DNA of 64,000 nucleotides from a virus (lineage: Duplodnaviria > Caudoviricetes). Both the position numbers and the translations under genes were made by a program. The notes beneath the pieces are model-generated. The model was not told where the DNA came from. It did no database searches and saw only the letters and a list, made by a program, of their open reading frames with translations. The stretch is taken from IMG/VR virus record IMGVR_UViG_3300013936_000011, positions 82,601 to 146,600 of that record. One strand, given 5' to 3'. Below, one piece after another: positions 1,085 to 60,140 of the stretch (positions within the stretch are counted from its first letter, which is position 1; each line of letters opens with the position of its first letter).

Positions 1085-2479
1085 ATGCTAACAAAAACTC
1101 AAACCCTTGCCGCTATTCAAAAATCATTAATCAAATACAATGACTTAGTGGCTAATCAAATTGATTCCAAAATAAGCGCTCATAATACTTTAGCTTCTGC
1201 TACTGCAAACGGACATATGTCATCAGGTATGGTGACTAAGTTAAACAGTATAGCAGACGGAGCTGAAGTAAACCAAAACGCTATATCAAAAATTAAAATA
1301 GGCGATGATACTGTAACTGCTGCTGGTAAAGAATCTACTGCTACTTTTAAAGGTAGTAACGGTATATCTGTATCATTTGATAAAGATAATGCTATAGAAA
1401 TATCTGGAGCAGATGCTGTTGGTGCTGCTAATAAAGTTTCGTCAGATTTATCGTCTTACAAAACTACTGTTGCAAACACTTACATGCCTAAGTCAGGTGG
1501 CACTTTTACTGGTATTATCACATTATCTGGCGCTCCTACATCTAACTTACATGCTGCTACTAAAAAGTATGTAGACGATAAAGTTACTGGATTAAGTATA
1601 GGAGATTACATGCCTAAATCAGGTGGAACATTCACAGGAACTGTTACACTATCTGGAGCTCCTACTACAGATTTACAAGCAGCAACTAAGAAATATGTAG
1701 ACGATGCTGCTGCTGCAGCTGCTGCTAAAGTTGTTGATTCGGCTCCTGATACATTAAATACTTTAAACCTATTAGCTGAAGCTTTAGGCGATGACCCTAA
1801 ATTTGCTACTACAATAGCTACTCAAATAGGTACTAAAGTAGATAAAGTAGACGGTAAAGGATTATCAACTAATGACTATACTACAGATGAAAAGAATAAA
1901 TTAAAAGGTATAGCATCTGGTGCAGAAGTCAATCAAAATGCATTTGCTACTATAGCTGTTAAAGTAGGAACAACTACTACTAATGTAGAAGCTGACGCTA
2001 AACAAGATGTATTAACATTAACACAAGGAGATAACGTAACATTAACTCCTAATGCTACTAATGATACAATAACTATATCTGCAAAAGATACTACATATCC
2101 TGAAGCAACTACAAGCGCACACGGTTTAATGAGTACTGGTGATAAAGACAAATTAAATAAAATAGCTGCAGGTGCAGAAGTTAACCAAAACGCATTTTCA
2201 ACTGTTAAGGTAGGAAATACTAGCATAGCTTCTGGTGGTAAAACAGCTACATTAACATTGGCAGCTGGTTCTAATGTTACTTTGACTCCAGATGCAACTG
2301 GTAAAAAAGTAACAATAGCTGCTACAGACACTACTTATCCTGAAGCCTCACAATCAGCTCATGGTCTAATGAGTGCAAGTGATAAAACTAAATTAGACAG
2401 TATAGTAGCTGAAGCAGATGTTTCTGATGAAGAAATAACTTCTATGATAGCTAATGTTCAAACTGCTATAAATGCATAA
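1085..2479 (+). CDS. Fibre shaft protein with MLTKxQT N-terminus
   Basis: Fibre repeats YMPKSGGTFTG..LSGAPT..L.AATKKYVD x2, APDTLNTL..LAEALGDDPKF, KVDKVDGKGLSTNDYT, GAEVNQNAF x3, HGLMS..DK.KL; RBS AAGGAG. Confidence 0.85.
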   Translation: MLTKTQTLAAIQKSLIKYNDLVANQIDSKISAHNTLASATANGHMSSGMVTKLNSIADGAEVNQNAISKIKIGDDTVTAAGKESTATFKGSNGISVSFDKDNAIEISGADAVGAANKVSSDLSSYKTTVANTYMPKSGGTFTGIITLSGAPTSNLHAATKKYVDDKVTGLSIGDYMPKSGGTFTGTVTLSGAPTTDLQAATKKYVDDAAAAAAAKVVDSAPDTLNTLNLLAEALGDDPKFATTIATQIGTKVDKVDGKGLSTNDYTTDEKNKLKGIASGAEVNQNAFATIAVKVGTTTTNVEADAKQDVLTLTQGDNVTLTPNATNDTITISAKDTTYPEATTSAHGLMSTGDKDKLNKIAAGAEVNQNAFSTVKVGNTSIASGGKTATLTLAAGSNVTLTPDATGKKVTIAATDTTYPEASQSAHGLMSASDKTKLDSIVAEADVSDEEITSMIANVQTAINA

Positions 2480-2499
2480 TAGAAAATAGAATAAATAGA

Positions 2500-2541
2500 A
2501 TATAGGCACAAAAATTTTTATATTCTTGTGCCTATATTTTT
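2500..2541 (+). terminator. Intrinsic terminator
   Basis: ATATAGGCACAA / TTGTGCCTATAT stem followed by a T run. Confidence 0.75.
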
Positions 2542-2589
2542 AATAAAAATAATATATTAATTATTATAATGAAAGGAGATAACGATTGA

Positions 2590-4296
2590 ATGCTTACTAA
2601 AACTCAAACAATGAATGCTATTCAAAAATCGTTAATAGCATATAAAACGAATGTGTTAGATAATTTATATACTAATCAAAATGCATTCTCTAATGTAAAG
2701 GTTGGCAATACTACTATTGCTGCTGATTCAGCTACTGATACATTAACATTAACTGCTGGAAATAATATAACTTTGACTCCTAATGCAACTGATGATAGTG
2801 TTTCTATAGCTGCTAAGGATACTACTTATACAACTAGTTCTCCTATATCACTATCTGGAACTACTATCTCTCACGCTACATCTGGAGCATCAGCTGGTAG
2901 TTATGGAGATAGTACTAATCAAACTCCTGCTTATGGAGCAACATTTAAAGTGCCATATTTAACAATAAATAATACTGGACATGTAACAGGTATATCTGAA
3001 CATACAGTAAAAATACCTGCTTCAAATAATACAGATACTAAAATGAATGTAACTCTTAACACTACTACTAAGGCTTATCTTGTAGGTGTTTCTACAACTC
3101 CTACTACAACAGCTAAAGCTTTAACTGGTATAGCAGATACAGGCGTTTATCTTGATACTACTGCTGGTAGTTTAACAGCAACTACTTTCAATGGAGCTCT
3201 TAGCGGTAATGCTACTAGTGCAGATAAAGTTAATAATCAATTAAATATTGTATTAAAAGCAATACAAGGAGGAGCAAGAACATCATATGATGGATCTTCT
3301 GTTCAAACAGTTCTTATAAATCCATCAAGTATAGGCGCAGCATTTGAAAGTCATACACATAGCCAATATGTAAACCCAAATTCATATGGCTATATATTTA
3401 TAGGTGATGATGAAAACATTAGTGCTACTGGCACAGATGATGTAATAGCTTTTAAACCTGGAGATGGTATAAATATCAGTTTTGGGACTTCAGATGTTGC
3501 AACATCTTCAGTATTAATTGCTAATGCTGGTGTTAGAAGTATATCTTCAGGTAGTACTAATGGTACTATATCAGTTAATACAGGCGGTACAACAGCAGAT
3601 GTAGCAGTAAAAGGATTAGGAACTGCAGCATATACAGCATCAACAGCTTATGCATCTTCAAGCCATACACATAAATATGCAGGTTCATCATCAGCAGGTG
3701 GTACTGCAACAGAAGCTGCTAAGACAACTGGTACACTTACTATACAAGGTAATGGTATAAGTATTAATACATTTAATGGTTCTGCAAATAAAACAGTAAA
3801 TATTACACCAGCTAATATAGGTGCTGCTACTAGCAGTCATACCCATAGTGGATATGCATCTTCTACTCATGCTCATGGACTACTTAACAGTGATTTTACG
3901 AAAGAAGTAAATGGTTCTACTGGAGGATGGGAATTAATAAATAGCACTAATACTGGTTATTTATTAACATCACTAAGAGGTGGTAATTCTGTTCCAGATT
4001 GGTTTAACTCACCATATGGTTCAGGTATCATATTTGGTGGTTCTGATACAAAGGGTGTATTGTCAATGTCTTATACTTCACCTTCAATAACATTTGCAGG
4101 CGGTGCATCATCTCCTTCTTGGAATTTAAAAATAACTGGTTCAAACAATAAAACATATAATCTTAATGATTATGCAACAAACGATGTAATCTTAACTCTA
4201 CAAGGTTATGTAAGCACTTTACAAAGCGATGTAAGTACTTTAAAAACTCAAATGGGAGATGTAGAAAGTATATTACAAGAAATTAACGGAGAATAG
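2590..4296 (+). CDS. Fibre protein with MLTKxQT N-terminus
   Basis: Thr/Ser/Gly-rich; NQNAFS repeat shared with the upstream gene; several SHTH motifs; C-terminal coiled coil ending GDVESILQEINGE. Confidence 0.85.
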   Translation: MLTKTQTMNAIQKSLIAYKTNVLDNLYTNQNAFSNVKVGNTTIAADSATDTLTLTAGNNITLTPNATDDSVSIAAKDTTYTTSSPISLSGTTISHATSGASAGSYGDSTNQTPAYGATFKVPYLTINNTGHVTGISEHTVKIPASNNTDTKMNVTLNTTTKAYLVGVSTTPTTTAKALTGIADTGVYLDTTAGSLTATTFNGALSGNATSADKVNNQLNIVLKAIQGGARTSYDGSSVQTVLINPSSIGAAFESHTHSQYVNPNSYGYIFIGDDENISATGTDDVIAFKPGDGINISFGTSDVATSSVLIANAGVRSISSGSTNGTISVNTGGTTADVAVKGLGTAAYTASTAYASSSHTHKYAGSSSAGGTATEAAKTTGTLTIQGNGISINTFNGSANKTVNITPANIGAATSSHTHSGYASSTHAHGLLNSDFTKEVNGSTGGWELINSTNTGYLLTSLRGGNSVPDWFNSPYGSGIIFGGSDTKGVLSMSYTSPSITFAGGASSPSWNLKITGSNNKTYNLNDYATNDVILTLQGYVSTLQSDVSTLKTQMGDVESILQEINGE

Positions 4297-4310
4297 GAAA
4301 GGGTGATAAA

Positions 4311-5456
4311 ATGGCAATATCAGATGAATTAGATTTAACGTTACAAACAAAAGAAGGTCTTAAAGGAGTTATAGAAGATAACGGTCAGACTGCTCCTACC
4401 AAGTTCTCGCAATATCCTGCAGTACTTGATAATATAATAGATAATATGAGAAGCCAATTAAAAATAGCGGATTTTATAATTATCAATGATGATACAACTC
4501 TAGCATCATTAAATAGTTTCTTTGAATTTTTACCTTCTGTTCCAGCAGGTTCTACAACTACTACACAAGCTACGGCTGAAGTAACAACATCAAACTTAAA
4601 CGTAAGAGCTTCTGGTTCTTCTAGTGGTAGTTATGTAGGACTATTGGTTAAAGGAGATGTTGTTAATGTATATGGCACAGCATCTTCAGGATGGTATAAA
4701 ATAAATCAATGGCGTAGTAGCTCTACTGGTGCATTAACAAATCATGGAAGTAGTTATGCTTATATATCTAACAGTTCATCTTATGTAACATATTATCCTT
4801 CTACTACAATATCTAATAAGAAACAAATAGATATAAGTAGTACAGATGGTACTTCTGTACAACAAAAATGTAATTACGTATTAGCTGAAACTAAAGGCTG
4901 GGAAGTATTATTTGACGAAACTTATAAACCAGGAACAGGTTCTTCTGGAGCTTCAACTACAACAGAAAGAACTACTGATTATTCATTTAATAACTGCTAT
5001 ACAGATAACTATTCTTCAAGCAGTTATGGTAGTAAAGTTGCTACAAATACTTCAACAGTAAGACAAGGTTATTATTCTGGATACTATTATTATAAAGGTA
5101 ATTTCAGATTTACAAGTTCTAGACTTTCTGAAATTAAGAGTGTCTTAAATAATTCAACTGTAAAATCTGTTCAAATATATGTACAAAGAGCAAATACTAC
5201 ACATGGTACGTCTGGCTCAGCTACATTAAAACTATATGCATGTAACAGTTCAGGTTCATATTCTGATGTTTTAGTAGATGGCTCAAGTACATTAGCTAGA
5301 GGCGGAGGCAAATGGATAACATTAAGTAGTGATGTAGTTAATGGATTCAAGACTGGTAAATATGATCACTTCAAAGCATATTATCCTTCTACTAGTTTAT
5401 CATATTATATAGTATTTGCATTAAATGCTAAATTGAGAATAACTTATACAGCATAA
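4311..5456 (+). CDS. Putative fibre tip/receptor-binding protein with SH3b domain
   Basis: TSNLNVRASGS...LVKGDVVNVYG...GWYKI matches the SH3b signature; C-terminal Tyr/Ser-rich beta domain ending LRITY. Confidence 0.7.
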   Translation: MAISDELDLTLQTKEGLKGVIEDNGQTAPTKFSQYPAVLDNIIDNMRSQLKIADFIIINDDTTLASLNSFFEFLPSVPAGSTTTTQATAEVTTSNLNVRASGSSSGSYVGLLVKGDVVNVYGTASSGWYKINQWRSSSTGALTNHGSSYAYISNSSSYVTYYPSTTISNKKQIDISSTDGTSVQQKCNYVLAETKGWEVLFDETYKPGTGSSGASTTTERTTDYSFNNCYTDNYSSSSYGSKVATNTSTVRQGYYSGYYYYKGNFRFTSSRLSEIKSVLNNSTVKSVQIYVQRANTTHGTSGSATLKLYACNSSGSYSDVLVDGSSTLARGGGKWITLSSDVVNGFKTGKYDHFKAYYPSTSLSYYIVFALNAKLRITYTA

Positions 5457-5473
5457 TTTTATAAGTATCATAT

Positions 5474-5503: not shown

Positions 5504-5506
5504 ATT

Positions 5507-5513: not shown

Positions 5514-5543
5514 ATATTATAGTTAATGAAAGGGTGTGTTATT

Positions 5544-45086: not shown

Positions 45087-46358
45087 ATGCTTACAAAGAA
45101 ACAGACTTTAGATACAATTAAAAAGACATTAAGCTTATATAAAACCAATGTCTTAGATAATGTTTATGCAAAAACAGAATATGTAGATTCTAAAGCTTTG
45201 CCAATAATACTTATAAATGACGAGAATAAAACTGGTTCTGCTTTATTCCCATTATTACCTGAACATAATTTAGTATTCATTGCAGGAGATGCTCAAATAC
45301 CAGATAGTAATGGAGACATTACAACAATATACGGTCTATGTTATTCAGATTTACAAGATGATGGAAGTAAATTAATTACTGAATATAGAACTGGTAAAGC
45401 TGCTAAAATAAATTCTAACGGCATATTAGAATCTTTTGAGTATATTGATACGAACGTAAAATCAATCGTTTCTAATATAAAAGGCGGAGAAACAAATAAA
45501 TTATTAGCTAAAAATAGTGATACGGATTTTGATTATAAATGGGTCGATATGCCTTCAATCGAAACATTGCCTGTTAATTATGATAAAAATTGTGCTACAA
45601 ATGTTGCTGAATTAAAAGCTCATACTATTTATGTAGCACCAAAAGATGCTGATTTTTTATATTTAGGATACGAAAAACTTAGCGGCTCTTTTAGTGGATT
45701 TTTTCTTTCAATCAATCCTCATGGTAAATTTATTTATACTGGTTATAAAGATGATAGTAGAATTGAAGTTATGATAGAAGGAACTTGTTATACAGCTTAT
45801 TTTAAAACTGATACTGAAGACGCTCATACTGAAAAAACAGTATATTATTTAACTAAAAATAATAATATAGGTTTTACTCCAACATTGGATTATGAACCTG
45901 CTACTAAAAAGTACGTAGATAATGCTAAAGCTTCAATAACTGTTCCTACTAAGACTTCAGAGCTAACTAATGATAGTAATTTCTTGACTGAACATCAATC
46001 ATTAGATGGATACGCTAAAACTACAGATCTTCATACTCATGACAATAAAGAAGTATTAGATACAATAACAGCAGAAAAAGTAGCACAATGGGATAGCAAT
46101 ACTGGTTCAAGTGGTGGCTCTACATCTGGCATAAATATAGTAACTATATCTCAATCTGATTATGACGCATTAGAAACAAAAGATGCTAATACATTATATC
46201 TAATAACAACTACTAATGCAGGTGATATAGATACTTCAAGTAATGATATAACATTAAGTGATGATTTACCAGCAGGTACTTATACACTTAAATATGAAGA
46301 TGAAAACAATCAACCATTAGATGGTTTCGATGAAATAACAACATTGGAGGTGCAATAA
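45087..46358 (+). CDS. Fibre protein with MLTKxQT N-terminus
   Basis: GG.T..LLAKNS.TDFDYKW, PATKKYVD, VPTKTSELTNDS.F, HTHDNK.VLD and ISQSDYDALETKDANTLYLI fibre motifs. Confidence 0.8.
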   Translation: MLTKKQTLDTIKKTLSLYKTNVLDNVYAKTEYVDSKALPIILINDENKTGSALFPLLPEHNLVFIAGDAQIPDSNGDITTIYGLCYSDLQDDGSKLITEYRTGKAAKINSNGILESFEYIDTNVKSIVSNIKGGETNKLLAKNSDTDFDYKWVDMPSIETLPVNYDKNCATNVAELKAHTIYVAPKDADFLYLGYEKLSGSFSGFFLSINPHGKFIYTGYKDDSRIEVMIEGTCYTAYFKTDTEDAHTEKTVYYLTKNNNIGFTPTLDYEPATKKYVDNAKASITVPTKTSELTNDSNFLTEHQSLDGYAKTTDLHTHDNKEVLDTITAEKVAQWDSNTGSSGGSTSGINIVTISQSDYDALETKDANTLYLITTTNAGDIDTSSNDITLSDDLPAGTYTLKYEDENNQPLDGFDEITTLEVQ

Positions 46359-47797: not shown

Positions 47798-47811
47798 GAG
47801 AGTGATGTTAT

Positions 47812-48288
47812 ATGGCAACAATAACTAAGACAGGTACTGCAACAGCTACACCTACTGCATCTAGTATAAGCTTTAGTGGTACAACACAAAGATCTGGTAC
47901 TATATCATGGACTACTCCTACTTTACCTGACAATGCTACAATATTATCTTGTACATTAACAGGTACAATGACAGGTTCATCATCTTATGGTTCAGTTACT
48001 CTTACAGTTAATGGAACTACTGTTACATCTGGTACAGCATTCAGTATAGATTTAGGTACCAAAGGTACAACAACTTCTGTAACTGCAACTGCAAAAGGTA
48101 GTAGTCGTTGGGGTTCAGGTACTGCTACTTTTAGTAACTTATTATATACAATTGAATATGAATATACCGAAACTGTAAAAGAGAAAAATAAAAAACGCAT
48201 GATAATAAACAATACTAATGTTAAAAAAATGTATTTTGGTGAAAATATTGTATATAAGGTTTATTTGGGAGATATACAAGTATTTTAA
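47812..48288 (+). CDS. Small Thr-rich fibre tip/decoration protein
   Basis: Beta-sandwich domain plus C-terminal VKKMYFG...VYKVYLGD.QVF motif. Confidence 0.65.
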   Translation: MATITKTGTATATPTASSISFSGTTQRSGTISWTTPTLPDNATILSCTLTGTMTGSSSYGSVTLTVNGTTVTSGTAFSIDLGTKGTTTSVTATAKGSSRWGSGTATFSNLLYTIEYEYTETVKEKNKKRMIINNTNVKKMYFGENIVYKVYLGDIQVF

Positions 48289-48307
48289 TATATAAGGGAG
48301 TGATGTA

Positions 48308-48550
48308 ATGCTTACAAAGACACAAACTCTAGACGCAATAAGAAAAGCGCTGATTTCATATAAAACAAATGTATTAGATACTATATATGCTAAAGCTTCA
48401 GACGTGCCTTCAATTGATGGATTAGTTAGTGAGACATCTCTTAATAATAGATTAAGCAATTTATCTGTCGTTACAATGACACAATCCCAATATAATGCAT
48501 TAGAGACAAAAGATTCTAATGTTTTATATCTAATAACTAATGATGAATAG
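48308..48550 (+). CDS. Minimal adaptor protein with MLTKxQT N-terminus
   Basis: 80 aa: MLTKTQT motif, short linker, and TQSQYNALETKDSNVLYLI motif. Confidence 0.75.
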   Translation: MLTKTQTLDAIRKALISYKTNVLDTIYAKASDVPSIDGLVSETSLNNRLSNLSVVTMTQSQYNALETKDSNVLYLITNDE

Positions 48551-48561
48551 GAGGTAAGTAA

Positions 48562-50088
48562 ATGACTGTATTAAAAGTAAAGCCTAGTGGGTATGATGCT
48601 GGTGGCTGGGACTCGAGTGATTATCCTATGGAGAATGCTTACGACGATGATTTAACTACAGTCGCCAGATGTACATTAAGAAGGAATAGAACTAGAAAAT
48701 GTACATATAATTTTACTCTTCCATCATTACCTGAAGGTTGTATTGTAAACGGTATTAAATTACATTTATTATTAAAATGTGCTAACAGTAACTCTTCTGG
48801 AGCGTGTTTTTTAACTATAAAACATAATGATTCGACTACGTTAAAGGAAATACATTTAGAATTTGTAAATGACGGAGTAGATTATGATTTAGAGTTAACA
48901 AAAGATCAATATGATAATTTAACGAGCATATCTTTTGAAGGTAAATATACAACTATAATGTTTACATGTTATGCATATATATTTGACATGTATATATCTG
49001 TTGATTATACTGATTTGACTCAGACAATGTTGTTAAGTGATAGTGAAGTATGGGTATGTGAGAACGAAACTCATACTATCACTGCACAAGCGTATCCTAT
49101 TACATCTGTTACATGGACTACAGATGATCCTAATATAATTGATCTTGTTCCGAGTAATAATGGATTTACATGTGATATTATTGGTAAAGTTCCTGGACAA
49201 TGTTATCTAACTGCGACTCATGCAGATAATTCAGAGTGTACTAAGCGAATATTAGTCGTTGTTAATCAGCTAACTGTAATATGTACTCCTACTATTAATA
49301 TAGGAGATAATGCATTAAAAACATTAGCTATAGGACCTAATGAAATAAAAAGAATATATCTAGGAGATAAACAATTGTTTACTGAGAAACAGGAAGTAGT
49401 GTATACTGATATTAAACACGATAATATACCTAAAGATTTCAGTATGAATTTATACACTAGATTAGTTCCAGATAAATACATAAGTGGTATACTGTGTCGT
49501 GTTTCTACATATATAGATACTGCAGGACATTTGGCAGGAGCCCTTAGAACTACCAATAATGCTTCTGGTATTACTGGTGGAGATAGTAGTGCATGTTATA
49601 GTTTTATACCAGTATATTCGGGTGAAGATATTATTATAGATATACCTAAAACTGATTACGGTATTGGACTAGTTGGATATGATGCTAACAAAGATTATTA
49701 CCAAACATGGTTTGGCCCAGATAATGGATGGGCAAACTATAAAAAATATACAGATGCAGATATAGAAAAATGGACTCATATGACTTGTCCTATTCCTCAA
49801 GAAGGAGTAAAATATATACGTTGGTGTATGGATTCAACTGATACTGACAAATATTATTTTAGACGATATAGTGTACAACCAATAGATTTAAAAGTATATC
49901 CTTTGAATAGTACAGAATCTAGTAAAATAATTTATACTTCTAGTGATGAAAACGTGGCAATAGTAAAAGACAATATGATAGTGGCAAAATCTGCTGGAAC
50001 TTGTGTGATAACAATTACATGTGGAAGTGTTTATTCTAAGATAAATTTGACAATAGTTGATAATAGTAGCGAATTTGCTACATACTGA
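48562..50088 (+). CDS. Ig-like (Big_2) domain protein, putative fibre tip/adhesin
   Basis: VTWTTDDPNII and YTSSDENVA.V...AKSAGTCVITIT Big_2 signatures; internal IG.N.IKRIYLGDKQLF motif. Confidence 0.7.
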   Translation: MTVLKVKPSGYDAGGWDSSDYPMENAYDDDLTTVARCTLRRNRTRKCTYNFTLPSLPEGCIVNGIKLHLLLKCANSNSSGACFLTIKHNDSTTLKEIHLEFVNDGVDYDLELTKDQYDNLTSISFEGKYTTIMFTCYAYIFDMYISVDYTDLTQTMLLSDSEVWVCENETHTITAQAYPITSVTWTTDDPNIIDLVPSNNGFTCDIIGKVPGQCYLTATHADNSECTKRILVVVNQLTVICTPTINIGDNALKTLAIGPNEIKRIYLGDKQLFTEKQEVVYTDIKHDNIPKDFSMNLYTRLVPDKYISGILCRVSTYIDTAGHLAGALRTTNNASGITGGDSSACYSFIPVYSGEDIIIDIPKTDYGIGLVGYDANKDYYQTWFGPDNGWANYKKYTDADIEKWTHMTCPIPQEGVKYIRWCMDSTDTDKYYFRRYSVQPIDLKVYPLNSTESSKIIYTSSDENVAIVKDNMIVAKSAGTCVITITCGSVYSKINLTIVDNSSEFATY

Positions 50089-51838: not shown

Positions 51839-51886
51839 TTTTATATATAGATTATTAATTATAATCTTATGAAATGAGGGGATATA

Positions 51887-52963
51887 ATGAGAGAAGATAT
51901 AAAGAGCTTATTAGATGCTGATAAAGATTTAAGTATCGAAACAGTTGATGAATTAGACAATAAAATACTTGCTACCAATTTCTTTGAAAACATGGCAAAT
52001 GATATAGATGAATTCGATAAAGTTGCTTGGGAGAATAAAGCAGGATTTGATACTCCTAGCTTTCCAAGTTTTACTGAAGGATTAGAAGGTTGGAGCCCAG
52101 GATTTTATTGTTTTGCAGGTGCGGCTAACATGGGTAAGACAGCTATAATGTTAAATATAATGGAAGATTTATGTATGAATGCAGATAATAAATTATTCGG
52201 TGTATATTTCTCATTGGATGATTCTAAGAATAAAGTAATACCTAGAATAGTAGCAATGAGAGAATTATTACCTATTAATGTAGTAGCTAAGCCTGGACGT
52301 TTTAAACAAATGATAATAGACGGACATCCTGATTCTATTAATATAGCTACTCAATTAGATAGACGTGAAGAAGGACTTCAAAAGCTTAAATCAGAATCTA
52401 ATAGATTTGTAATATTCGATTCTCAAGAGATAAGAACTATAGATGATATATATGAGAAAGCAAGACAAATATATACATACGTAAAAGCTATAGATGAAGA
52501 AATGAATATTGTAATAGGAATAGATAGTTTAAAAGATATAGAAATACCAGACCTTAAACTTACTACTAACGAAAGAATAGACATGGTAGCTAAGAAGATA
52601 AAAGATTTATCTATAGAATTGAATTGTATAACTTTTGCTTCTATGCATTTAAGAAAATTAAATGGTAATCGTCGTCCTACAATGGATGATTTAAAAGATA
52701 GTAATACACTTGAATATGAATTAGATGCATGTTTTTTAGTTTATAATGATGTATCTAAGAACAAACAAGGAGCCAAAATATTCTATAGAGACAGCGAAGA
52801 TTCCGTAGACAAACAACCAGTTATAGAAATAGATTGGGGTAAAAATAAAATAAGTGCATATAAAGGAATTACATTCTGTAATTTTGCACCAGATTATTCT
52901 AAATGTATTGAATGTAGCGAAGATGCGGCTATGAGATATAACGCTTTAATATATGAAGTATAG
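51887..52963 (+). CDS. dnaB: DnaB-like (SF4) replicative helicase
   Basis: Walker A AGAANMGKT, YFSLDD, IDSL, H3/H4 region HLRK...RPTMDDLKDSNTLEYELD, KNK; adjacent to the primase. Confidence 0.85.
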   Translation: MREDIKSLLDADKDLSIETVDELDNKILATNFFENMANDIDEFDKVAWENKAGFDTPSFPSFTEGLEGWSPGFYCFAGAANMGKTAIMLNIMEDLCMNADNKLFGVYFSLDDSKNKVIPRIVAMRELLPINVVAKPGRFKQMIIDGHPDSINIATQLDRREEGLQKLKSESNRFVIFDSQEIRTIDDIYEKARQIYTYVKAIDEEMNIVIGIDSLKDIEIPDLKLTTNERIDMVAKKIKDLSIELNCITFASMHLRKLNGNRRPTMDDLKDSNTLEYELDACFLVYNDVSKNKQGAKIFYRDSEDSVDKQPVIEIDWGKNKISAYKGITFCNFAPDYSKCIECSEDAAMRYNALIYEV

Positions 52964-52985
52964 AATTATTTTCTATACTTTTTTT
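52956..52985 (+). terminator. Intrinsic terminator overlapping the helicase stop
   Basis: AAGTATAGAA / TTCTATACTT stem plus T tract. Confidence 0.7.
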
Positions 52986-53011
52986 ATGTCAATATAAGAC
53001 TTTAAGCTACA

Positions 53012-53018
53012 GGTAATA
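53012..53018 (+). promoter_or_regulatory. Putative late promoter motif GGTAATA
   Basis: Upstream of the fibre-chain operon. Confidence 0.6.
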
Positions 53019-53053
53019 AAAATATAGTCAAGTATAAGAAAGGAGAAATGAAA

Positions 53054-53527
53054 ATGGCTAGACAACAAATAGCAAAGATTACTTTATATGGTAATACAGT
53101 TAGTTGGATGGATCCATATAATTGTATATATCTTACTACTCATAAAGCTGGTAAATTAGAGGCAGTAGTATATGATGATATGGATTTAAACTCTATTAGA
53201 GAAGGTATAGCAAAACGCTTAATTAAAGTTATAGAAGGCGAAATACCTGAACCATCAACAGGCGGAGATGCATCTGTAGATGAAAAGACTTTAAATGAAT
53301 TAATAAGCAAAAAAGTTCAAGACGCTATAGCTAGTGGTGTAGATTTATCAAACTATGCTACAACATCTGAATTAGCAGATGCTATAACAAACTTAATAGG
53401 TGGAGCAGACGAAAGTTCTGATACATTAAAAGAATTAGCTGATTTATTAGCTAAGAAAGCTGATAAAGAAGAAATAGTAGCTATAGAAGAAGCTACTGTG
53501 GAAGAAACAAAAGACTTATATAAATAA
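53054..53527 (+). CDS. Putative fibre anchor protein
   Basis: Globular N-terminus, then VDLSNYAT and LIGGA.E..DTLKELA fibre motifs; acidic C-terminal helix; ATG 53054 fits the RBS. Confidence 0.65.
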   Translation: MARQQIAKITLYGNTVSWMDPYNCIYLTTHKAGKLEAVVYDDMDLNSIREGIAKRLIKVIEGEIPEPSTGGDASVDEKTLNELISKKVQDAIASGVDLSNYATTSELADAITNLIGGADESSDTLKELADLLAKKADKEEIVAIEEATVEETKDLYK

Positions 53528-53542
53528 AGGAGTGAATAATTA

Positions 53543-54913
53543 ATGGCAAAACATATAACACTTGAAGGATTACAAGCAGTACTTCAATTAGTTAAACAAG
53601 ATGTTCAAGCTGTTGATGCTAAAGTCGATGGAATACAAGTTCCTTCTGTTGAAGGTTTAGCTACAGAAGATTTCGTTAATCAAAAGATAGCTACTGTACT
53701 TGGAGCAGACGATTTAGCTGAAGATCTTGACTCTTTAAAAGAAGTAATAGATGTATTAACTAAAGACGGCGCAGATATAGTTGCTTTACAAGAAGCTATA
53801 AATAAAAAAGTTGACGCTGAAGACGGTAAAGGGCTGATATCTTTAGACGAAATAACTAGATTAGCAGATGTAAAGAATTATGATGATACAGATGTTAAAA
53901 ACAGATTAACTGCTCTTGAAGGCATAGATCATAGCAAATATTTAACAGAACATCAAGATATAACTGGATTAGCTACTAAAGAAGAAGTACAAGCTAAAGC
54001 TGATGCTACTGCACTTGATGGTAAAGTAGACAAAGCTGAAGGTAAATCATTAATAGCTGATACTGAAATAGCTAGACTTGCTGAAGTTAAAAACTATGAT
54101 GATACAGAAGTAAAAGCATTAATAGAAGCTAAAGCAGATAAAGAACATACTCATGATGCATCTGCAGTAGTATTTGCAGATAAAACTACATTACAAGCTA
54201 AACTTGATGATGGTTCACTTAAAGGAGCTCAAGGCGACCCTGGTGAAAAAGGTGACGCATTTACTTATGCTGACTTTACTACTGAACAATTAGCTGCTTT
54301 AAAAGGTGAACAAGGTGCTGAAGGTGTAGGTATAGATACTGTTACTATAGAGTATGTAGACAATGTACCTCATGTTAAAGTTAAATATGACGATGTAGAT
54401 GCTACAGTGCAAGATGCTGGTGCATTAGATTTAACTCAAATAAAAGAATATACTGAATTAAAAGCATTAGTAAATAAAATACAATCTCAAGTTAACAGTA
54501 CTAATCCATGGGGCGATTGTGTATGGGTAGATGCTGAATATGCGCAACCTACTATAGGATCATTTATACCATCTCCTAAATTAAGAGCAGAAAATGATGC
54601 AGATGAAATGGCTCTTGCTGATAGACTTGAAGCTGGTGCATACGAATTATACGTTGTAGCTACTACTGATATGAAAGATTATGATCGTCGTTATGATTGT
54701 ATGATACCAATGGATGGTTTAAGAGAAGGTCAAGGTGGTCAAGTAGTTCAAAAACGTAGTGATGATGCAGCATGGACAAGATTATTAGGTCAATGTCCAG
54801 CTTGGGTTAAAAACAATGTTAACTGGGCTTTCAATGACACTAAGAATAAAGAAGTAGAATTAAATTGCTCTCCTGATACTACTTGCATATTTGTATTAGT
54901 AAGAAGATTCTAA
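53543..54913 (+). CDS. Fibre protein with short collagen-like segment
   Basis: KVD...GK.LI...EI.RLA.VKNYDDT x2; KGAQGDPGEKGDAFTYADFT.EQLAALKG; globular C-terminus. Confidence 0.75.
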   Translation: MAKHITLEGLQAVLQLVKQDVQAVDAKVDGIQVPSVEGLATEDFVNQKIATVLGADDLAEDLDSLKEVIDVLTKDGADIVALQEAINKKVDAEDGKGLISLDEITRLADVKNYDDTDVKNRLTALEGIDHSKYLTEHQDITGLATKEEVQAKADATALDGKVDKAEGKSLIADTEIARLAEVKNYDDTEVKALIEAKADKEHTHDASAVVFADKTTLQAKLDDGSLKGAQGDPGEKGDAFTYADFTTEQLAALKGEQGAEGVGIDTVTIEYVDNVPHVKVKYDDVDATVQDAGALDLTQIKEYTELKALVNKIQSQVNSTNPWGDCVWVDAEYAQPTIGSFIPSPKLRAENDADEMALADRLEAGAYELYVVATTDMKDYDRRYDCMIPMDGLREGQGGQVVQKRSDDAAWTRLLGQCPAWVKNNVNWAFNDTKNKEVELNCSPDTTCIFVLVRRF

Positions 54914-54931
54914 TTAAAGGAAGTGATGTAA

Positions 54932-55387
54932 ATGGCTTTAACTGATGAACAAAAAGTACTACAGGCTGATATATTAGCAGAAAAAACTGATTCCGATACC
55001 AATCCTAACATGACTTATTCTACTAGCGCTGCAAAAAATAAAGCCTTAAATCCAGATACTTTCTCTGGTAATAATTCTAAAGTAGTAAACGCTATAAATT
55101 TAACTTATAAACAAGCTGAAAAAGCTATAACTACAGTTGATAATTTTAGTACTAAAGTAAATGAAGTTTTATTAGACGTTGGTAGTACAAATGGTCTTGC
55201 TAAATTAGAGCAACTAAGAACAGATATGGGACAACAAACTTTAATAGAAGGCCTTATAGATTTATATGAAAATAAATTACCTACATATACAACAACAGAC
55301 TCAATAGAATATGCAACATCTGAAGAACTAGTAAATATGTATAACTCTATAGATGTTAAGTCATCTACTGACAATACACAAGAATAA
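54932..55387 (+). CDS. Putative fibre anchor/segment protein
   Basis: K.VVNAIN fibre motif; C-terminal YATSEELVNMY. Confidence 0.65.
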   Translation: MALTDEQKVLQADILAEKTDSDTNPNMTYSTSAAKNKALNPDTFSGNNSKVVNAINLTYKQAEKAITTVDNFSTKVNEVLLDVGSTNGLAKLEQLRTDMGQQTLIEGLIDLYENKLPTYTTTDSIEYATSEELVNMYNSIDVKSSTDNTQE

Positions 55388-55402
55388 GGTGGTGAATAAA
55401 TC

Positions 55403-55735
55403 ATGTCTAATAAAGTAGTAACTACCGATGCCTTAAGCGAAGTCCTTAGTATAATTAAGAAAGATATTAATACCAATTCTACTAACATTTCTACTATTCA
55501 AGAATCTCTGAATACTGTACAAACAGGGTTAACAGAAATTAAACAAATAATAAAAGACTCTGGTGTGACTGCTTCTTCTGATTGGAATGATATAACTAAT
55601 AAACCAGACTTCGCAGATACTCTTTCATTGAATGATAACAAATTAAAATTATTAGGTAATAAGACTAGTGAAATGTCTTCTGTAGATATAACTACTACAG
55701 ATGATATAAATAATATTTTAAATAGTATAGAATAG
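55403..55735 (+). CDS. Short coiled-coil fibre segment
   Basis: Coiled coil, WNDITNKP fibre motif, terminal motifs at both ends. Confidence 0.7.
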   Translation: MSNKVVTTDALSEVLSIIKKDINTNSTNISTIQESLNTVQTGLTEIKQIIKDSGVTASSDWNDITNKPDFADTLSLNDNKLKLLGNKTSEMSSVDITTTDDINNILNSIE

Positions 55736-55750
55736 GAAAGGAGATTAAAC

Positions 55751-57208
55751 ATGGCTGATTTTAATAAAAAGTTAGTTGATCAAGCTGCATTGGAAGCCTT
55801 AGCTAAAGGTCTTAATGACAAATCTAAAGCTGCTGTCGAAGCAGAAAAAGCTAGAGCTCAAGAAGCTGAACAAGCAGCTAAAGATGCTGCTGATGCTGCT
55901 AAAAGTACTGCTGATAGCGCTGCAGCTGATTTAGTTAATGTTAAAAAAGATATAGCAGATTTAACTTCTACCGATAGTGGTGCAGTTAAACAAGCTAAAG
56001 ACTATACTGATGCTGAAGTTAAAAAAGTTTCAGATATAGTAGGTAAAGCTGCTGTTCCTGGCGAAGGTGATGCTGAAGGTACTCCTGCCACTGGTTTAGT
56101 TGCAAGAGTTGATTCTGCTGACAGTAAAATTGCTGGTTTAGAAACAGCTAATGAAGATGAAGAAAAAAGAATAGCTGCACTAGAAACTAAAGTAGGTGCT
56201 GCTAAAGTAGAAGGCGAAGAAGCTCAAGCTGCTACTGGTCTATTTGCAGAAGTAGATAGATTAGATAAAAAAATAGATGACTTATCTATACCTAGCGTAG
56301 ATGGTTTAGCTACTACAGAATATGTTGACGGTAAAGTAAGTGATTTAATAGGTGGAGCTGATGAAGCTTACAATACATTAAAGAAATTAGAAGACGAGTT
56401 AAAAGATGGTGATAACACTGTATCTGGACTTGTTACTCAAATAGCTGAAAAAGCTGATAAAGATCATAATCATGACGATGTATATGCTAAAATAGACCAT
56501 AATCATGATGATGTATATGCTGCAAAAGAACATACGCATTCAACTGCAGATGTTAAATATACTAACGAACAATATCCAGAAATGGAATCTGTTGCTGATG
56601 CATTAGATCAATTACTATATGTTACACCTACTGTTAAAACATTCTCTTCAACTCCTGCATTTGGTGATTATGAAATAGGTTCAACTGTTTCTAATCCTAA
56701 ATTTACATGGACTTATAATAAAGCTATAACTAACCAAAACTTAAAAGCTGGTGGAACTACTATAGCTTTAGATGACCCAGCAGTTAGAGAATACGCTTAT
56801 ACAGGAGATATAACAGCTAATACTACGTTTACTGTATCTGGTAATGATAATAAATTAAAAGCATGTTCAAAAACTGGTTCATTCAACTTCAAACATAAAA
56901 GATATTTTGGTGTTGCAGAAGTACCAGCTGAATACGACAGTGCTTTTGTATTAGGTTTATCTGGTAAAGAATTCTGTACAAACAGACAAAAAGGATCATT
57001 TAGTTTAACTGCAGGAGCTGGAAAATATATGTTCTATTGCTTCCCTGCAAGTTATGGAACTCCTACTTTTAATGTAGGTGGATTCGATGGTGGCTTTGAG
57101 TTGGCGGCTACTATAGATTTTACTAATGCTAGTGGTAATACTACTTCATTTGTAATCTATAAATCAGAAAACGCTAATCTAGGAACTCAAAGTATAATAG
57201 TTAAATAA
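55751..57208 (+). CDS. Coiled-coil fibre protein
   Basis: EKARA..AE, ATGL.A, LIGGA.EAYNTLK and HNHDDVY x2 motifs; C-terminal beta domain. Confidence 0.75.
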   Translation: MADFNKKLVDQAALEALAKGLNDKSKAAVEAEKARAQEAEQAAKDAADAAKSTADSAAADLVNVKKDIADLTSTDSGAVKQAKDYTDAEVKKVSDIVGKAAVPGEGDAEGTPATGLVARVDSADSKIAGLETANEDEEKRIAALETKVGAAKVEGEEAQAATGLFAEVDRLDKKIDDLSIPSVDGLATTEYVDGKVSDLIGGADEAYNTLKKLEDELKDGDNTVSGLVTQIAEKADKDHNHDDVYAKIDHNHDDVYAAKEHTHSTADVKYTNEQYPEMESVADALDQLLYVTPTVKTFSSTPAFGDYEIGSTVSNPKFTWTYNKAITNQNLKAGGTTIALDDPAVREYAYTGDITANTTFTVSGNDNKLKACSKTGSFNFKHKRYFGVAEVPAEYDSAFVLGLSGKEFCTNRQKGSFSLTAGAGKYMFYCFPASYGTPTFNVGGFDGGFELAATIDFTNASGNTTSFVIYKSENANLGTQSIIVK

Positions 57209-57222
57209 GGAGGTGGACTTAA

Positions 57223-58374
57223 ATGGCAATTACATTAATTAGTAATATCAAACAAGCTAATAACGGTACATTCTGGCTTGTAGATAGTAATGATATACGT
57301 GGTGGTTTATACCATGTTGATAGTGTAGCAGAAATGAATGTCCTACCTACTGATAACTTAAAAGAAGGTATGTTGTGCTACGTTGCTGCTGAAGAAAAAT
57401 TCTATCAATACAAAAAAGACGCAGACGGACAACTTAAATTCGATGTATGGAAAGTTGGATTCGATAAAGAAGAAACTTTCACAGAATTAAGCAATAAAAC
57501 TATAATCAATTCTATTATAGCAAATTCAGATACATTAACTAACTTACAAAAACAAGTTGATGCCATTACAGGTACGGGTGAAGGTGGCGACGCTACTACT
57601 ATAGCAGGATTAAATGCTCAATTAGCATCATTAAAAACTACTGTAGGTAAAGCAACTGAAGGCGATACTGCTGCAACTGGCTTATTTGCTAGAATAGAAG
57701 CATTAGAAAAACAATTAACTGCTCATACTCATGAAATAGCAGATGTAACTGGTTTACAAACTGCATTAGATGATAAAGCAGTTAAAAGCGATTTTGATGC
57801 ATTAAAAGAATTAGTTGGTACATTACCAGAAACTGCTACTGCAAGTAACGTTGTTGGTTATGTAGATGAAAAAGTAGCTGCTTTAGTTGATGGGGCTCCT
57901 GAAACTCTAGATACTTTAAAAGAATTAGCAGATGCGCTAAATAATCAACCAGATGCTATAGCTGCTTTAACAAACTCAATAAGTCAAAAAGCTGATGCTT
58001 CTGCATTAGAAGCTTTACAACAAACTGTTGAAAAAAATAAAGGCGTATCAGATACAGTTAGTACTAAAGTAGATGCTTTAGATGCTATATTAAATGGATT
58101 TGGTGGAGCTGATGAACCTGCTACAGTTAAAGATTCTTTAGAAGAATTAAAAACTACATTAGCTACTAAGGTTGATCAAAACACTGTTAACACTTCAATA
58201 GCTAATGCTGTAAATAAATTTGCTTTATCTGGCTCAGAAGACGATAGCAATTTAACTATATCACTTGATTTCGGTGATGGCGAAGGTGCCGTTCAACTTG
58301 GTAAAGTTGATATACCAGTCATTACTGTAAGTGAAGTACAAACAATAATAGATAATTTAGATAAAACTGTATAA
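57223..58374 (+). CDS. Coiled-coil fibre protein
   Basis: N-terminal IKQ.NN..F.LVD..DI.GG...LKEGMLCYV; HTHEIADVTGLQ.ALD; LVDGAPETLDTLKELADAL. Confidence 0.75.
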   Translation: MAITLISNIKQANNGTFWLVDSNDIRGGLYHVDSVAEMNVLPTDNLKEGMLCYVAAEEKFYQYKKDADGQLKFDVWKVGFDKEETFTELSNKTIINSIIANSDTLTNLQKQVDAITGTGEGGDATTIAGLNAQLASLKTTVGKATEGDTAATGLFARIEALEKQLTAHTHEIADVTGLQTALDDKAVKSDFDALKELVGTLPETATASNVVGYVDEKVAALVDGAPETLDTLKELADALNNQPDAIAALTNSISQKADASALEALQQTVEKNKGVSDTVSTKVDALDAILNGFGGADEPATVKDSLEELKTTLATKVDQNTVNTSIANAVNKFALSGSEDDSNLTISLDFGDGEGAVQLGKVDIPVITVSEVQTIIDNLDKTV

Positions 58375-58391
58375 GGATGGTGCAAATATAA

Positions 58392-60140
58392 ATGGCTAAA
58401 AAAAGATTAATAACATATGAACAATTAAATACCTTATCTAAAGGTATTTATGCTAAACTTCATGACGAAATAAATACCGTAGCAAGTGGCGTAAATGTAG
58501 CTAACAGTAATATAACAGCAGTAACTGAAAGAATGACCACTGCAGAAGGTAAACTAGACACTATACAAGGCGACGGTGCTGGTTCTATATCTAAAGCATT
58601 ACAAGATGCTAAAGATTATGCAGATGGTCAAGATACAACATTACATACTACTATAACTGGTGAAATAGGCGACGCTAAAGCTGCTTTACAAGCAGAAATA
58701 GATAAAAAAGCTGCTCAAGCAGATATGACTACTGCATTAGCTGCTAAAGCAGACGCTGCAGACTTAACAACTGAACAAAGCAGAGCTCAAGATGCTGAAG
58801 GAGCTTTAGCTGGTAGATTAGATGTAATCGAAGGCGAAGATACTGTTGAAGGTTCTATTAAAAAAGCTGTAGCTGATCATAAAAAATATGCTGACGATAC
58901 TTTCGCTACTAAAGGTGCTTTAAACACTGTATCTGAAAAAGTTACTACTGCTGAAGGTAACATAGAAGCATTAAAAACAGCTGTAGGTACAGACGAAAAA
59001 GGTAATTTAAAATCTGTAGCTAGTCAAATATCTGATGTTAATTCAGCTGCTGAAGCACTTGAAGGTAGAGTTGCTGCTAATGAAACTGCTATAGGTAATA
59101 TACAAAAAGATTACTTAAAAGCAGCAGACAAAACTGAATTAGCAGGAAACATAACTGAAGCTAAAACTGCTGCAGATAATGCACAAGCTGACGCTACTGT
59201 TGCTAAAGATAAAATAGAAGCTTTCATGAAAGCTGCTGACGTTCAAGAAGGCGCTATAGATACATTAAAAGAAATCCAAGACTATATAACTAGTGACGGT
59301 GCAGCTGCTAAACAAATGACTAGTGACATAGCTGCAAGAGTTAAACAAACAGATTACGATACTGAAGTACAAAAATTAGAAGCTGCTGATTCAGCTTTAG
59401 CTGATAGAGCTACTGCTCTTGAAGGTTTAGTTGGTAAAGAAGCAGGAGATGATACTGAAGCTACAGGACTTGTTAAAAAAGTTGCTGACAATGCTTCTGG
59501 TGTATCTAGTAACAAAGCTGCTATAGCTAGCTTACAAAAAGCTATGGGTACTGTAACTGAAGTTGCTTCTTCAACAGCTGTTAAAGCAGTAGAAGATAGA
59601 GTACAAAAAACTGAAAGTGCTATAGGTACTAAAGCTGCTGGTGAAACTCCTGCTACTGGATTATATAAAGAAATAGCTGACGAAGTTACTAGAGCTACAG
59701 GTGTAGAAGATGGATTAAGAACAGATGTAGACGCTCTTAAAACTACAGTAGGTACTGATGCTAAAGGTCTTGTTAAAGACGTTAAAGATTTACAAGCTAC
59801 TGTAAATACACTAGAAGGTTCTAATCATAGTCATGACAATAAAGAAGAATTAGATAAATTCCAAGATGGAGACAAAGCTAAATTAGATAATGCTGTTGCT
59901 AAAGTAACTGGAGATGCTTCAGTAGCTGGTACAATAGCAGAAGCTAAAAAAGCTGGTGACGATGCTAAGGCTGCAGTTGATGCATTAACTATAACTACTG
60001 CTGATGTAGCTGCAGAAGATGGTACTGTTACAGGTGTTACTGTTGCTTTAGGTAATGGTAAAACTGCTCAAATAGACTATCCATACGAAATAGTTGCAGA
60101 CAGTGAAATACAAGCTATAATAGCTGACTTAGCTAAATAG
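58392..60140 (+). CDS. Long Ala-rich coiled-coil fibre protein
   Basis: GSI.KA..DAK.YAD, IDTLKEIQ.YI, ATGL and HSHDNKE.LD motifs. Confidence 0.8.
   Translation: MAKKRLITYEQLNTLSKGIYAKLHDEINTVASGVNVANSNITAVTERMTTAEGKLDTIQGDGAGSISKALQDAKDYADGQDTTLHTTITGEIGDAKAALQAEIDKKAAQADMTTALAAKADAADLTTEQSRAQDAEGALAGRLDVIEGEDTVEGSIKKAVADHKKYADDTFATKGALNTVSEKVTTAEGNIEALKTAVGTDEKGNLKSVASQISDVNSAAEALEGRVAANETAIGNIQKDYLKAADKTELAGNITEAKTAADNAQADATVAKDKIEAFMKAADVQEGAIDTLKEIQDYITSDGAAAKQMTSDIAARVKQTDYDTEVQKLEAADSALADRATALEGLVGKEAGDDTEATGLVKKVADNASGVSSNKAAIASLQKAMGTVTEVASSTAVKAVEDRVQKTESAIGTKAAGETPATGLYKEIADEVTRATGVEDGLRTDVDALKTTVGTDAKGLVKDVKDLQATVNTLEGSNHSHDNKEELDKFQDGDKAKLDNAVAKVTGDASVAGTIAEAKKAGDDAKAAVDALTITTADVAAEDGTVTGVTVALGNGKTAQIDYPYEIVADSEIQAIIADLAK

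What the first reader, a model, noticed from the sequence alone, without database searches (positions are those of the whole stretch)
1085..60140. Candidate plug-and-socket code: fibre genes joined by recurring paired terminal motifs
Seen in sequence: a short motif at the end of one protein is followed by a characteristic motif at the start of the next. Pair A is a C-terminal [TS]xx[ED]hxxhh helix (VSDEEITSMIANV 1085; ATVEETKDLY 53054; ATSEELVNMY 54932; TTTDDINNILNSI 55403; ITVSEVQTIIDNL 57223; VADSEIQAIIADL 58392) followed by an N-terminal amphipathic helix (HITLEGLQAVL 53543; VVTTDALSEVL 55403; LVDQAALEALAKGL 55751; LITYEQLNTLSKGI 58392; MLTKTQT..AIQKSL 2590). Pair B is QS.Y.ALETKD.N.LYLI (45087, 48308) with K.hYLGD.Q.F (47812, 48562). 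Pair C is GDVESILQEINGE (2590) then ISDEL..TLQTK..LK.VIE (4311), seen once. Inference: these are orthogonal docking modules that chain separately encoded trimeric segments into long or branched appendages, with gene order largely reflecting assembly order. I know of no description of this as a unified code.
Basis: partly seen in the sequence, partly recalled or inferred. Interest (0 to 1): 0.9.

Follow-up and report, generated by a model that had tools for sequence, protein, structure and literature searches.

The report
Helix snap-joints between phage fibre segments
An uncultured human-gut jumbo phage encodes its fibres as separate anchor, extender and tip proteins that are probably clipped together end to end by a short end-helix packing onto the start-helix of the next protein; this is a new variant of a known way of building phage fibres, not the many-channel orthogonal "code" first proposed.

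Summary
The quoted motifs exist in the named genes (the finding's coordinates are gene starts). Only Pair A behaves as described. In the operon 53048-60140, four gene junctions join a C-terminal N-capped short helix ("plug") to an N-terminal amphipathic helix ("socket").

Docking at these junctions is supported:
- The same fibre is one gene in relatives L026/L027/L040, two genes here and three in L032, with the motif pair at each break.
- A second fused form (P0091) spans the g54932/g55403 joint.
- The 110-aa adaptor g55403 (socket + plug) is missing in L026-type phages and has 71 stand-alone homologues with near-invariant ends.
- A 3+3-chain model puts the interface on the two motifs: score 0.76, best of 3 controls 0.34 (mark reached by 58 of 80 solved complexes and 2 of 110 mismatched pairs).

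Not supported:
- Orthogonality. Plug and socket are one loose motif class, and one joint type serves two fibres.
- Pair B as terminal pairs. Its "plug" is Pfam PF24243 and its "socket" is C-terminal or mid-protein.
- Generality. There were 0 plug-to-socket pairs among 196 gene pairs in unrelated phage loci, and a held-out regex test failed.

Pair C, seen once here, recurs in four diverged relatives. This scan has flagged similar plug-and-socket patterns in at least eight other genomes. Verdict: new variant of a known kind.

The parts
53048..53527 (+). Fibre 1 anchor (159 aa): N-terminal globular domain, short stalk, C-terminal plug (residues ~147-158, nt 53486-53524)
   Evidence: The plug core E-A-T-x-E-E-x-x-x-x-Y is invariant across lineages (A5). 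The N-domain is a paralogue of the gene after the major head protein. Interface residues 144-158.
53543..54913 (+). Fibre 1 distal segment (456 aa): N-terminal socket helix (residues 1-21, nt 53543-53605), repeats, globular tip
   Evidence: Interface residues 1-18. Its tip resembles the C-terminus of the single-gene form in L026.
54932..55387 (+). Fibre 2 anchor (151 aa) with plug at residues 127-139 (nt 55310-55348)
   Evidence: A4. Fused to the adaptor's C-terminal half in P0089 and P0091.
55403..55735 (+). Fibre 2 adaptor/extender (110 aa): socket (residues 4-22), coiled-coil stalk, three beta-strands, plug helix (residues 96-110)
   Evidence: 71 stand-alone homologues with near-invariant ends and a heptad indel. 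AF2 with alignment: H8-52, three strands, H99-109, pLDDT 70.8. Absent in L026-type relatives.
55751..57208 (+). Fibre 2 distal segment (485 aa): socket (residues 7-25), repeats, globular tip
   Evidence: 49% identical to L026 12471-13733, which follows the anchor directly there.
57223..58374 (+). Fibre 3 anchor (383 aa): globular N-domain, stalk, plug (residues 367-383, nt 58321-58371)
   Evidence: The N-domain is 74% identical to the L026 185-aa anchor.
58392..60140 (+). Fibre 3 extender (582 aa): socket (residues 5-24), long Ala-rich stalk, terminal plug (residues 568-582) with no partner gene downstream
   Evidence: Its plug resembles that of the L026 185-aa anchor. A terminator follows.
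60158..60185 (+). Intrinsic terminator closing the fibre operon
   Evidence: 12-bp stem plus a T run; the only + strand terminator call in 52900-60600.
1085..2479 (+). MLTK-type fibre protein (464 aa) with N-terminal socket-class helix and C-terminal plug (nt 2420-2458)
2590..4296 (+). MLTK-type fibre protein (568 aa) ending in the Pair C tag (last 14 residues, nt 4252-4293)
   Evidence: The tag is conserved before g4311 homologues in L056, L060, L061 and L062.
4311..5456 (+). Tip protein (381 aa) with the Pair C N-terminal motif (nt 4311-4385) and an SH3_3 domain
   Evidence: Pfam SH3_3 E=6.2e-08. N-terminal motif conserved at 45-94% identity in relatives.
45087..46358 (+). MLTK-type protein (423 aa) with an internal PF24243 domain (residues 350-374, nt 46134-46208)
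47812..48288 (+). 158-aa protein ending in the Y-L-G-D beta-strand motif (nt 48253-48285)
   Evidence: The homologue in L061 ends with three such repeats and follows a protein ending in PF24243.
48308..48550 (+). 80-aa protein made of the MLTK N-terminus plus a C-terminal PF24243 domain
   Evidence: Pfam E=8.3e-13.
48562..50088 (+). 508-aa protein with the Y-L-G-D motif mid-chain (residue 263, nt 49348-49380)
   Evidence: A homologue follows a protein ending in PF24243 in L060.

Best explanation
The operon 53048-60140 of this roughly 260-kb human-gut jumbo myophage encodes three segmented, presumably trimeric fibres. They are an anchor plus tip (g53048+g53543), an anchor plus extender plus tip (g54932+g55403+g55751), and an anchor plus extender (g57223+g58392).

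Each proximal segment ends in a short helix of 10-17 residues, started in most cases by an S/T-x-x-E/D capping box. Each distal segment starts, at residues 4-8, with the amphipathic helix that opens its coiled-coil stalk. In the assembled fibre the three end-helices pack in parallel against the three start-helices, probably as a six-helix bundle, so the segments are joined non-covalently in gene order.

Extenders carry a socket at one end and a plug at the other, so they can be inserted or lost in evolution, and joints can be fused into one chain. The same logic probably applies to g2590>g4311 (Pair C).

Shown here: the motif positions, their adjacency, the fused and split relatives, and conservation of the ends. 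Predicted only: the physical contact. Inferred: the trimeric state, the six-helix bundle, and presence in the virion.

The four MLTK N-termini belong to the same helix class. They are more likely a shared attachment peptide for alternative receptor-binding proteins than partners of an adjacent plug.
For: 1. Fibre 1 is ONE gene of 271 aa in L026/L027/L040: its residues 4-100 match g53048 and 129-270 match g53543. It is TWO genes here and THREE in L032/L043/L044 (113 + 123/104 + 181 aa), with plug and socket at each break. L025 has only a 104-aa anchor, with no plug and no partner gene.
2. P0091 (252 aa) matches g54932 residues 1-116 (41% identity, E=4e-23) and ends with g55403 residues 61-110 (42% identity, E=6e-12). 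It is a natural fusion across the joint.
3. The adaptor g55403 is absent in L026-type phages, where the anchor is followed directly by the tip protein. It has 71 stand-alone homologues of 103-110 aa. Socket and plug positions are nearly invariant, and there is a 7-residue indel in the stalk. P0079 is a 171-aa version with both ends.
4. Complex model of g53048 residues 90-159 x3 with g53543 residues 1-90 x3: score 0.76, best of 3 controls 0.34. The mark was reached by 58 of 80 solved complexes and 2 of 110 mismatched pairs. The runs agree in 100% of contacts and the partner pLDDT is at least 75. The counts hold only roughly, because my own alignments and a 3+3 layout were used. The interface is g53048 residues 144-158 with g53543 residues 1-18, in parallel register.
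5. 13 sockets from three lineages align without gaps in the core. A socket matrix trained only on relatives ranks g53543 first and g58392 third of about 47,000 positions.
6. MLTK starts share 56-75% DNA identity, and about half of the identical residues use different codons, so selection acts on the protein.
7. The Pair C ends are kept in L056, L060/L061 and L062 at 45-66% identity. L062's upstream protein shares only the tag.
Against: - The motifs carry little information.
- My tuned plug and socket regexes cross-hit each other and an internal repeat of g53048.
- The tuned regexes found 0 joints in held-out family loci (35 pairs) and 0 in 196 gene pairs of unrelated phage loci.
- One complex control, with chain 1 replaced, still scored 0.34. 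Only one joint was modelled.
- The L026 match to g53543 is weak (24% identity, E=0.001).
- g58392 ends in a plug with no partner gene, and three MLTK sockets have no upstream plug.
- No data show that these proteins are in the virion, or that they are trimers.
Confidence: 0.65

Rival explanations
1. Orthogonal multi-channel docking code. Pairs A, B and C, and subtypes of A, are mutually exclusive connectors that specify a unique, possibly branched assembly. Orphan MLTK sockets cap the free plug of g58392.
For: There are visibly different plug flavours. The L026 anchor of the g54932 family carries a plug like that of g55403 and is followed by the g55751-type tip. Overall plug-socket covariation is r=0.41, p=0.02. 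Pair C is distinct and conserved. There is one free plug and three orphan sockets.
Against: Covariation disappears without the two L032 joints (r=-0.10, p=0.70). The clearest joint type is shared by fibre 1 and fibre 2 of this phage, and is used twice in series in L032 with nearly identical plugs. That predicts cross-compatibility, not exclusivity. Pair B motifs are not at the claimed ends. No non-cognate pair could be modelled.
Confidence: 0.12
2. No specific docking. The motifs are generic unit boundaries of this fibre type (a capping box plus an amphipathic helix). Genes simply break between units, and each protein attaches to the particle on its own.
For: The motif class is loose and occurs internally. 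Regex tests do not generalise. Plug and socket look alike.
Against: Anchors have no tip, and distal proteins have no domain other than the N-terminal helix to attach by. Fused forms join exactly these partners. The model interface is confined to the motifs and beats the controls. A plug is absent where there is no partner (L025).
Confidence: 0.15
3. The conserved ends are mainly recombination linkers: short DNA homologies that let phages swap fibre cassettes.
For: Module number and content vary between lineages. The block g45087-g48562 is missing in L040. Shared N-termini sit on unrelated bodies.
Against: DNA identity at the four MLTK starts is only 56-75%, with many synonymous differences. 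Junction spacers differ. This rival can coexist with docking.
Confidence: 0.08

Closest known systems
Phage T4 long tail fibre, gp34-gp35-gp36-gp37 (as summarised in PMC12143355 and PMC9603124)
   Same: One fibre is built from several separately encoded proteins, from neighbouring genes, joined end to end, with the receptor-binding tip last.
   Different: No sequence relation was found. Here the joints are short terminal helices, there is no sign of a monomeric knee protein, the segments are much smaller (110-580 aa), and the number of segments varies between close relatives.
Pseudomonas phage Pa193: tape-measure C-terminal helices with the tail-tip N-terminus, a six-helix bundle (PMC11456595)
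   Same: Three C-terminal amphipathic helices of one trimer pack with the N-terminal helices of the next trimeric protein. This is the geometry the model suggests here.
   Different: Different proteins and place (tail lumen, not fibre). The resemblance is mechanistic only. The bundle here is predicted, not solved.
Anchor-branch receptor-binding systems of Klebsiella and other phages (PMC6872550, PMC10253068, PMC9700779)
   Same: Several receptor-binding proteins share a short conserved N-terminal peptide that docks them to another fibre protein. This is the best analogue for the four MLTK N-termini.
   Different: Those systems dock onto globular domains (T4 gp10-like and similar). No such domain was detected here by Pfam.
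Pfam PF24243 Phage_tail_C, 'phage tail tip domain'; C-terminus of Bxb1 tail collar fibre gp4 (PDB 9d93)
   Same: Pair B's first motif is this family (E=1.2e-10 and 8.3e-13). In 9d93 it is likewise the last roughly 30 residues of a fibre.
   Different: It is a known domain, not a new plug. Its partner in this phage is not established.

Membership tests
Pfam PF24243 (Phage_tail_C) | Score above the curated cut-off of 23.7 bits | tested here: met
   g45087 scores 41.0 bits and g48308 scores 47.9 bits.
T4-type multi-protein long tail fibre | Consecutive genes encode consecutive segments of one fibre | tested here: met
   Fused and split forms of the same fibre in relatives.
T4-type multi-protein long tail fibre | Sequence homology to gp34, gp35, gp36 or gp37 | tested here: not met
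   No such Pfam or PHROG assignment; only generic tail-fibre repeat families.
T4-type multi-protein long tail fibre | Physical end-to-end binding of the segments | tested here: inconclusive
   Only a model: score 0.76, best control 0.34 (58 of 80 solved complexes and 2 of 110 mismatched pairs reach the mark).
Anchor-branch RBP systems | Conserved N-terminal peptide shared by several RBPs | tested here: met
   Four MLTK proteins share about 30 residues, with 12 invariant columns.
Anchor-branch RBP systems | Globular docking domain (T4 gp10-like) on the anchor protein | tested here: not met
   No such domain in Pfam scans of 20 window proteins.
Six-helix-bundle C-to-N joint (Pa193 TMP/tail-tip type) | Three C-terminal helices packed with three N-terminal helices | tested here: inconclusive
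   The predicted interface is limited to both terminal helices, in parallel register. The adaptor's ends are predicted helical. No solved structure exists.
Helix capping box (S/T-x-x-E/D) | S/T at N-cap and E/D at N3, followed by an amphipathic helix | tested here: met
   Present in 5 of 6 window plugs (g58392 has Ala at the cap). It is also common elsewhere: 80 regex hits.

The most novel reading that the evidence does not exclude
The helical joint is a reusable, partly promiscuous connector. Because one joint type serves two fibres, and extenders carry the same plug as the anchors, particles could carry fibres of variable length and mixed tips. The free plug on g58392 could also accept any of the orphan MLTK-headed proteins (g1085, g45087, g48308), giving a branched or exchangeable multi-receptor apparatus. 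Fibre 1, whose anchor domain is a paralogue of the gene next to the major head protein, would then be a segmented head fibre.
Probability: 0.2. Interest if true: 0.75.

Novelty: new variant of a known kind. Interest (0 to 1): 0.5.

Why it matters
Fibres decide which bacteria a phage can infect, and how multi-fibre jumbo phages assemble them is largely unknown. A joint of about 15 + 20 residues would explain two things: how these gut phages add, drop or swap fibre segments, and why their fibre regions break into many small genes that annotation pipelines leave unnamed. It would also offer a small natural connector for building chimeric fibres in laboratory phages. The principle of segmented fibres with terminal docking is established, so the value lies in the specific, testable joint and the natural fused and split series that defines it.

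Tried and rejected
Only one job exists, so no second joint and no non-cognate pair could be modelled.
- Single-sequence AF2 of the fused L026 protein was useless (pLDDT 35).
- Foldseek of the adaptor model against the PDB gave nothing at E<=0.001.
- The search for longer forms of g55403 in the 90% clusters found none, which the tool calls weak evidence.
- The exhaustive profile search gave two internal 'hits' (P0077, P0094) that are only the generic N-Y-N-D-L-T-N-K-P repeat, not fusions.
- A crude plug matrix trained on relatives recovered only g54932 and g1085 among the top hits.
- The tuned regexes did not generalise.
- Megablast against cultured phages found no match. The genome-contig scan found no prophage relative.
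- No paper cites PF24243. The Bxb1 structure paper is not in the library, so the role of the gp4 C-terminus could not be read.
- The 'chain-like fibres' of podophage A1002 are dimers strung on a rope protein, not an analogue.
- PDB sequence hits to 80alpha FibU and Bxb1 gp4 cover only a generic fibre repeat.


Full report
CONTEXT. The window is the last 64 kb of a 146.6-kb contig. It is 31% GC, and nearly all genes are on one strand. It holds baseplate and fibre genes (PHROG tail families) and two giant proteins. A primase and a DnaB-type helicase lie at 50804-52963. A seven-gene fibre operon spans 53048-60140 and is closed by a terminator at 60158-60185. A lysis block follows, with GH25, glucosaminidase and amidase+SH3 enzymes, which points to a Gram-positive host. 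Relatives are human-gut metagenome contigs of 176-265 kb. No cultured phage or prophage relative was found.

OBSERVATION. The finding's coordinates are gene starts. Every quoted peptide is present. For Pair A, the six C-terminal peptides sit in the last 11-25 residues of their proteins, and the N-terminal helices begin at residues 4-8. Four junctions of the operon (53048>53543, 54932>55403, 55403>55751, 57223>58392) join a plug to a socket across 15-17 nt, and each downstream gene has its own ribosome-binding site. The proteins without a plug (g53543, g55751) end in globular domains, and the proteins without a socket (g53048, g54932, g57223) start with globular domains.

Gene order inside the operon is not significant by itself (P=0.086). 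My tuned regexes for plug and socket hit each other's targets and an internal repeat of g53048. So these are short and long versions of one motif class, a capping box followed by an amphipathic helix, not two signatures.

COMPARATIVE EVIDENCE. Anchoring on the helicase gene instead of on the fibres gave diverged relatives (66% identity).
- Fibre 1. In L026/L027/L040 it is a single 271-aa gene whose N-terminus matches g53048 and whose C-terminus matches g53543; the second match is weak, at 24% identity and E=0.001. In L032/L043/L044 it is three genes (113 aa; 123 or 104 aa; 181 aa), with a plug and a socket at both breaks. In L025 only a 104-aa anchor remains, with no plug and no partner.
- Fibre 2. 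It has two genes in L026-type phages and three here. The extra gene is the 110-aa g55403, which carries a socket at one end and a plug at the other. g55403 has 71 homologues of 103-110 aa at 65-97% identity. Their socket and plug positions are almost all invariant, and they differ by a clean 7-residue indel in the stalk. An exhaustive profile search found its beta-module plus plug at the extreme C-terminus of other proteins. One is P0079, a 171-aa adaptor with both ends. Two others are P0089 and P0091, which begin as g54932-family anchors (41% identity, E=4e-23) and end as the adaptor's C-terminal half (42% identity, E=6e-12). They are natural fusions across the g54932/g55403 joint.
- Conservation. 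The plug core of fibre 1 is invariant across lineages, and 13 sockets align without gaps in the core.

STRUCTURE PREDICTION. I modelled three copies of g53048 residues 90-159 with three copies of g53543 residues 1-90. The score was 0.76 and the best of 3 controls 0.34. The mark was reached by 58 of 80 solved complexes and 2 of 110 mismatched pairs. The runs agree in 100% of contacts and the partner pLDDT is at least 75. The counts apply only roughly, because my own shallow alignments and a 3+3 layout were used. The confident interface is g53048 residues 144-158 with g53543 residues 1-18, which is exactly the plug and the socket. The closest pairs run in parallel register, as expected for an in-line joint. 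The adaptor, modelled with its alignment (pLDDT 70.8), has a long N-terminal helix (8-52), three strands and a C-terminal helix (99-109). This supports binding but does not show it.

WHAT IS NOT SUPPORTED.
- Orthogonality. Plug-to-plug and socket-to-socket similarity correlate over ten joints (r=0.41, p=0.02). This rests on one class (fibre 1 here, both L032 joints, and g54932>g55403). Without the two L032 joints, r=-0.10 and p=0.70. That class is used in two different fibres of this phage, and twice in series in L032 with nearly identical plugs. This suggests a generic connector.
- Generality. There were 0 plug-to-socket pairs in 196 gene pairs of unrelated phage loci and 0 in 35 held-out family pairs. 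By eye I saw another helical subtype in those family loci. That is a subjective reading and shows how elastic the motif class is.
- MLTK. The four N-termini are real (12 invariant columns), belong to the socket class, and are conserved at the protein level, not the DNA level. However, only g2590 follows a plug, and it does so across a 17-bp hairpin. A shared attachment peptide for alternative receptor-binding proteins is the simpler reading. The block g45087-g48562 is absent in L040.
- Pair B. The first motif is Pfam PF24243. It is also the C-terminus of the Bxb1 collar fibre gp4 in PDB 9d93. It is internal in g45087. The second motif is a beta-strand repeat at the C-terminal end of g47812 and mid-chain in g48562. 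Carriers of the two motifs are neighbours in relatives too (L060, L061), so some link is possible, but not the one described.

PAIR C. It is seen once in the window but recurs in relatives. In L056 (66% identity), L060/L061 (55-57%) and L062 (45%), the g4311 homologue keeps its N-terminal motif and the gene before it keeps the C-terminal tag. Most of these upstream proteins are homologous in their repeat bodies, so this is partly descent. L062's upstream protein shares only the tag. g4311 carries an SH3_3 domain, which fits a wall-binding tip.

COMPARISON WITH KNOWN SYSTEMS. Fibres made of several proteins joined end to end are textbook knowledge (T4 gp34-37; PMC12143355, PMC9603124). Shared N-terminal docking peptides are known from anchor-branch systems (PMC6872550, PMC10253068, PMC9700779). 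A joint of three C-terminal helices with the N-terminus of the next trimer has been solved for the Pa193 tape measure and tail tip (PMC11456595). I found no description of this particular joint or of its natural fused and split series. This scan has flagged plug-and-socket fibre patterns in at least eight other genomes. Those are unverified AI notes, used here as leads only.

VERDICT. The finding is a real and fairly well-supported helical snap-joint within one family of gut jumbo phages, and a new variant of a known kind. The broader 'orthogonal code' is not supported.

Noticed in passing
window 53048-53260; genome C1:31750-32247 (locus L053:4751-5245): The N-terminal 70 residues of g53048 are 37% identical (E=5e-11) to a 165-aa gene that directly follows the major head protein gene (phrog_3922, E=5.6e-23). 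Fibre 1 may therefore be a head fibre, not a tail fibre.
   Followed up: partly
window 45087-50088: This five-gene block holds two MLTK proteins, a metallophosphoesterase, and g47812 and g48562. It is absent in L040, where the g43963 homologue is followed directly by the g50209 homologue, and it differs in L038. It looks like a variable receptor-binding cassette.
   Followed up: partly
window 46358-47797 and 15642-18197: Two calcineurin-type metallophosphoesterases are encoded among fibre genes (Pfam E=3.2e-14 and 9.4e-09). The second also has purple-acid-phosphatase N-terminal and lamin-tail domains.
   Followed up: no
window 50804-52963: A primase (PriCT_1, DNA_primase_S) and a DnaB-like helicase lie between two fibre gene clusters. 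This is an unusual position for replication genes.
   Followed up: no
window 2499-2538: A 17-bp perfect hairpin lies in the 110-nt gap between g1085 and g2590. The scanner calls it terminator-like on the minus strand only.
   Followed up: no
window 61185-64000: Three different cell-wall hydrolases lie in a row: GH25 muramidase, glucosaminidase, and amidase_2 with SH3 domains. All follow two small membrane proteins.
   Followed up: no
L038:20-172 and L061:4653-5087: Proteins of the g47812 family end in three tandem copies of a 10-residue K-x-h-Y-h-G-N-x-x-h strand motif. The window copy has two.
   Followed up: no
protein P0095: This 193-aa database protein has an N-terminus unrelated to the anchor/adaptor family joined to the anchor/adaptor C-terminal part. 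By eye the N-terminus resembles an ATP-synthase gamma subunit, which I did not test. It is probably a chimeric assembly or gene call.
   Followed up: no
window 60239-60493: An 84-aa TTG-start ORF after the operon terminator is conserved in L001. It has no family hit and no socket, and it is unrelated to the 119-aa gene that follows the plug in L026.
   Followed up: partly
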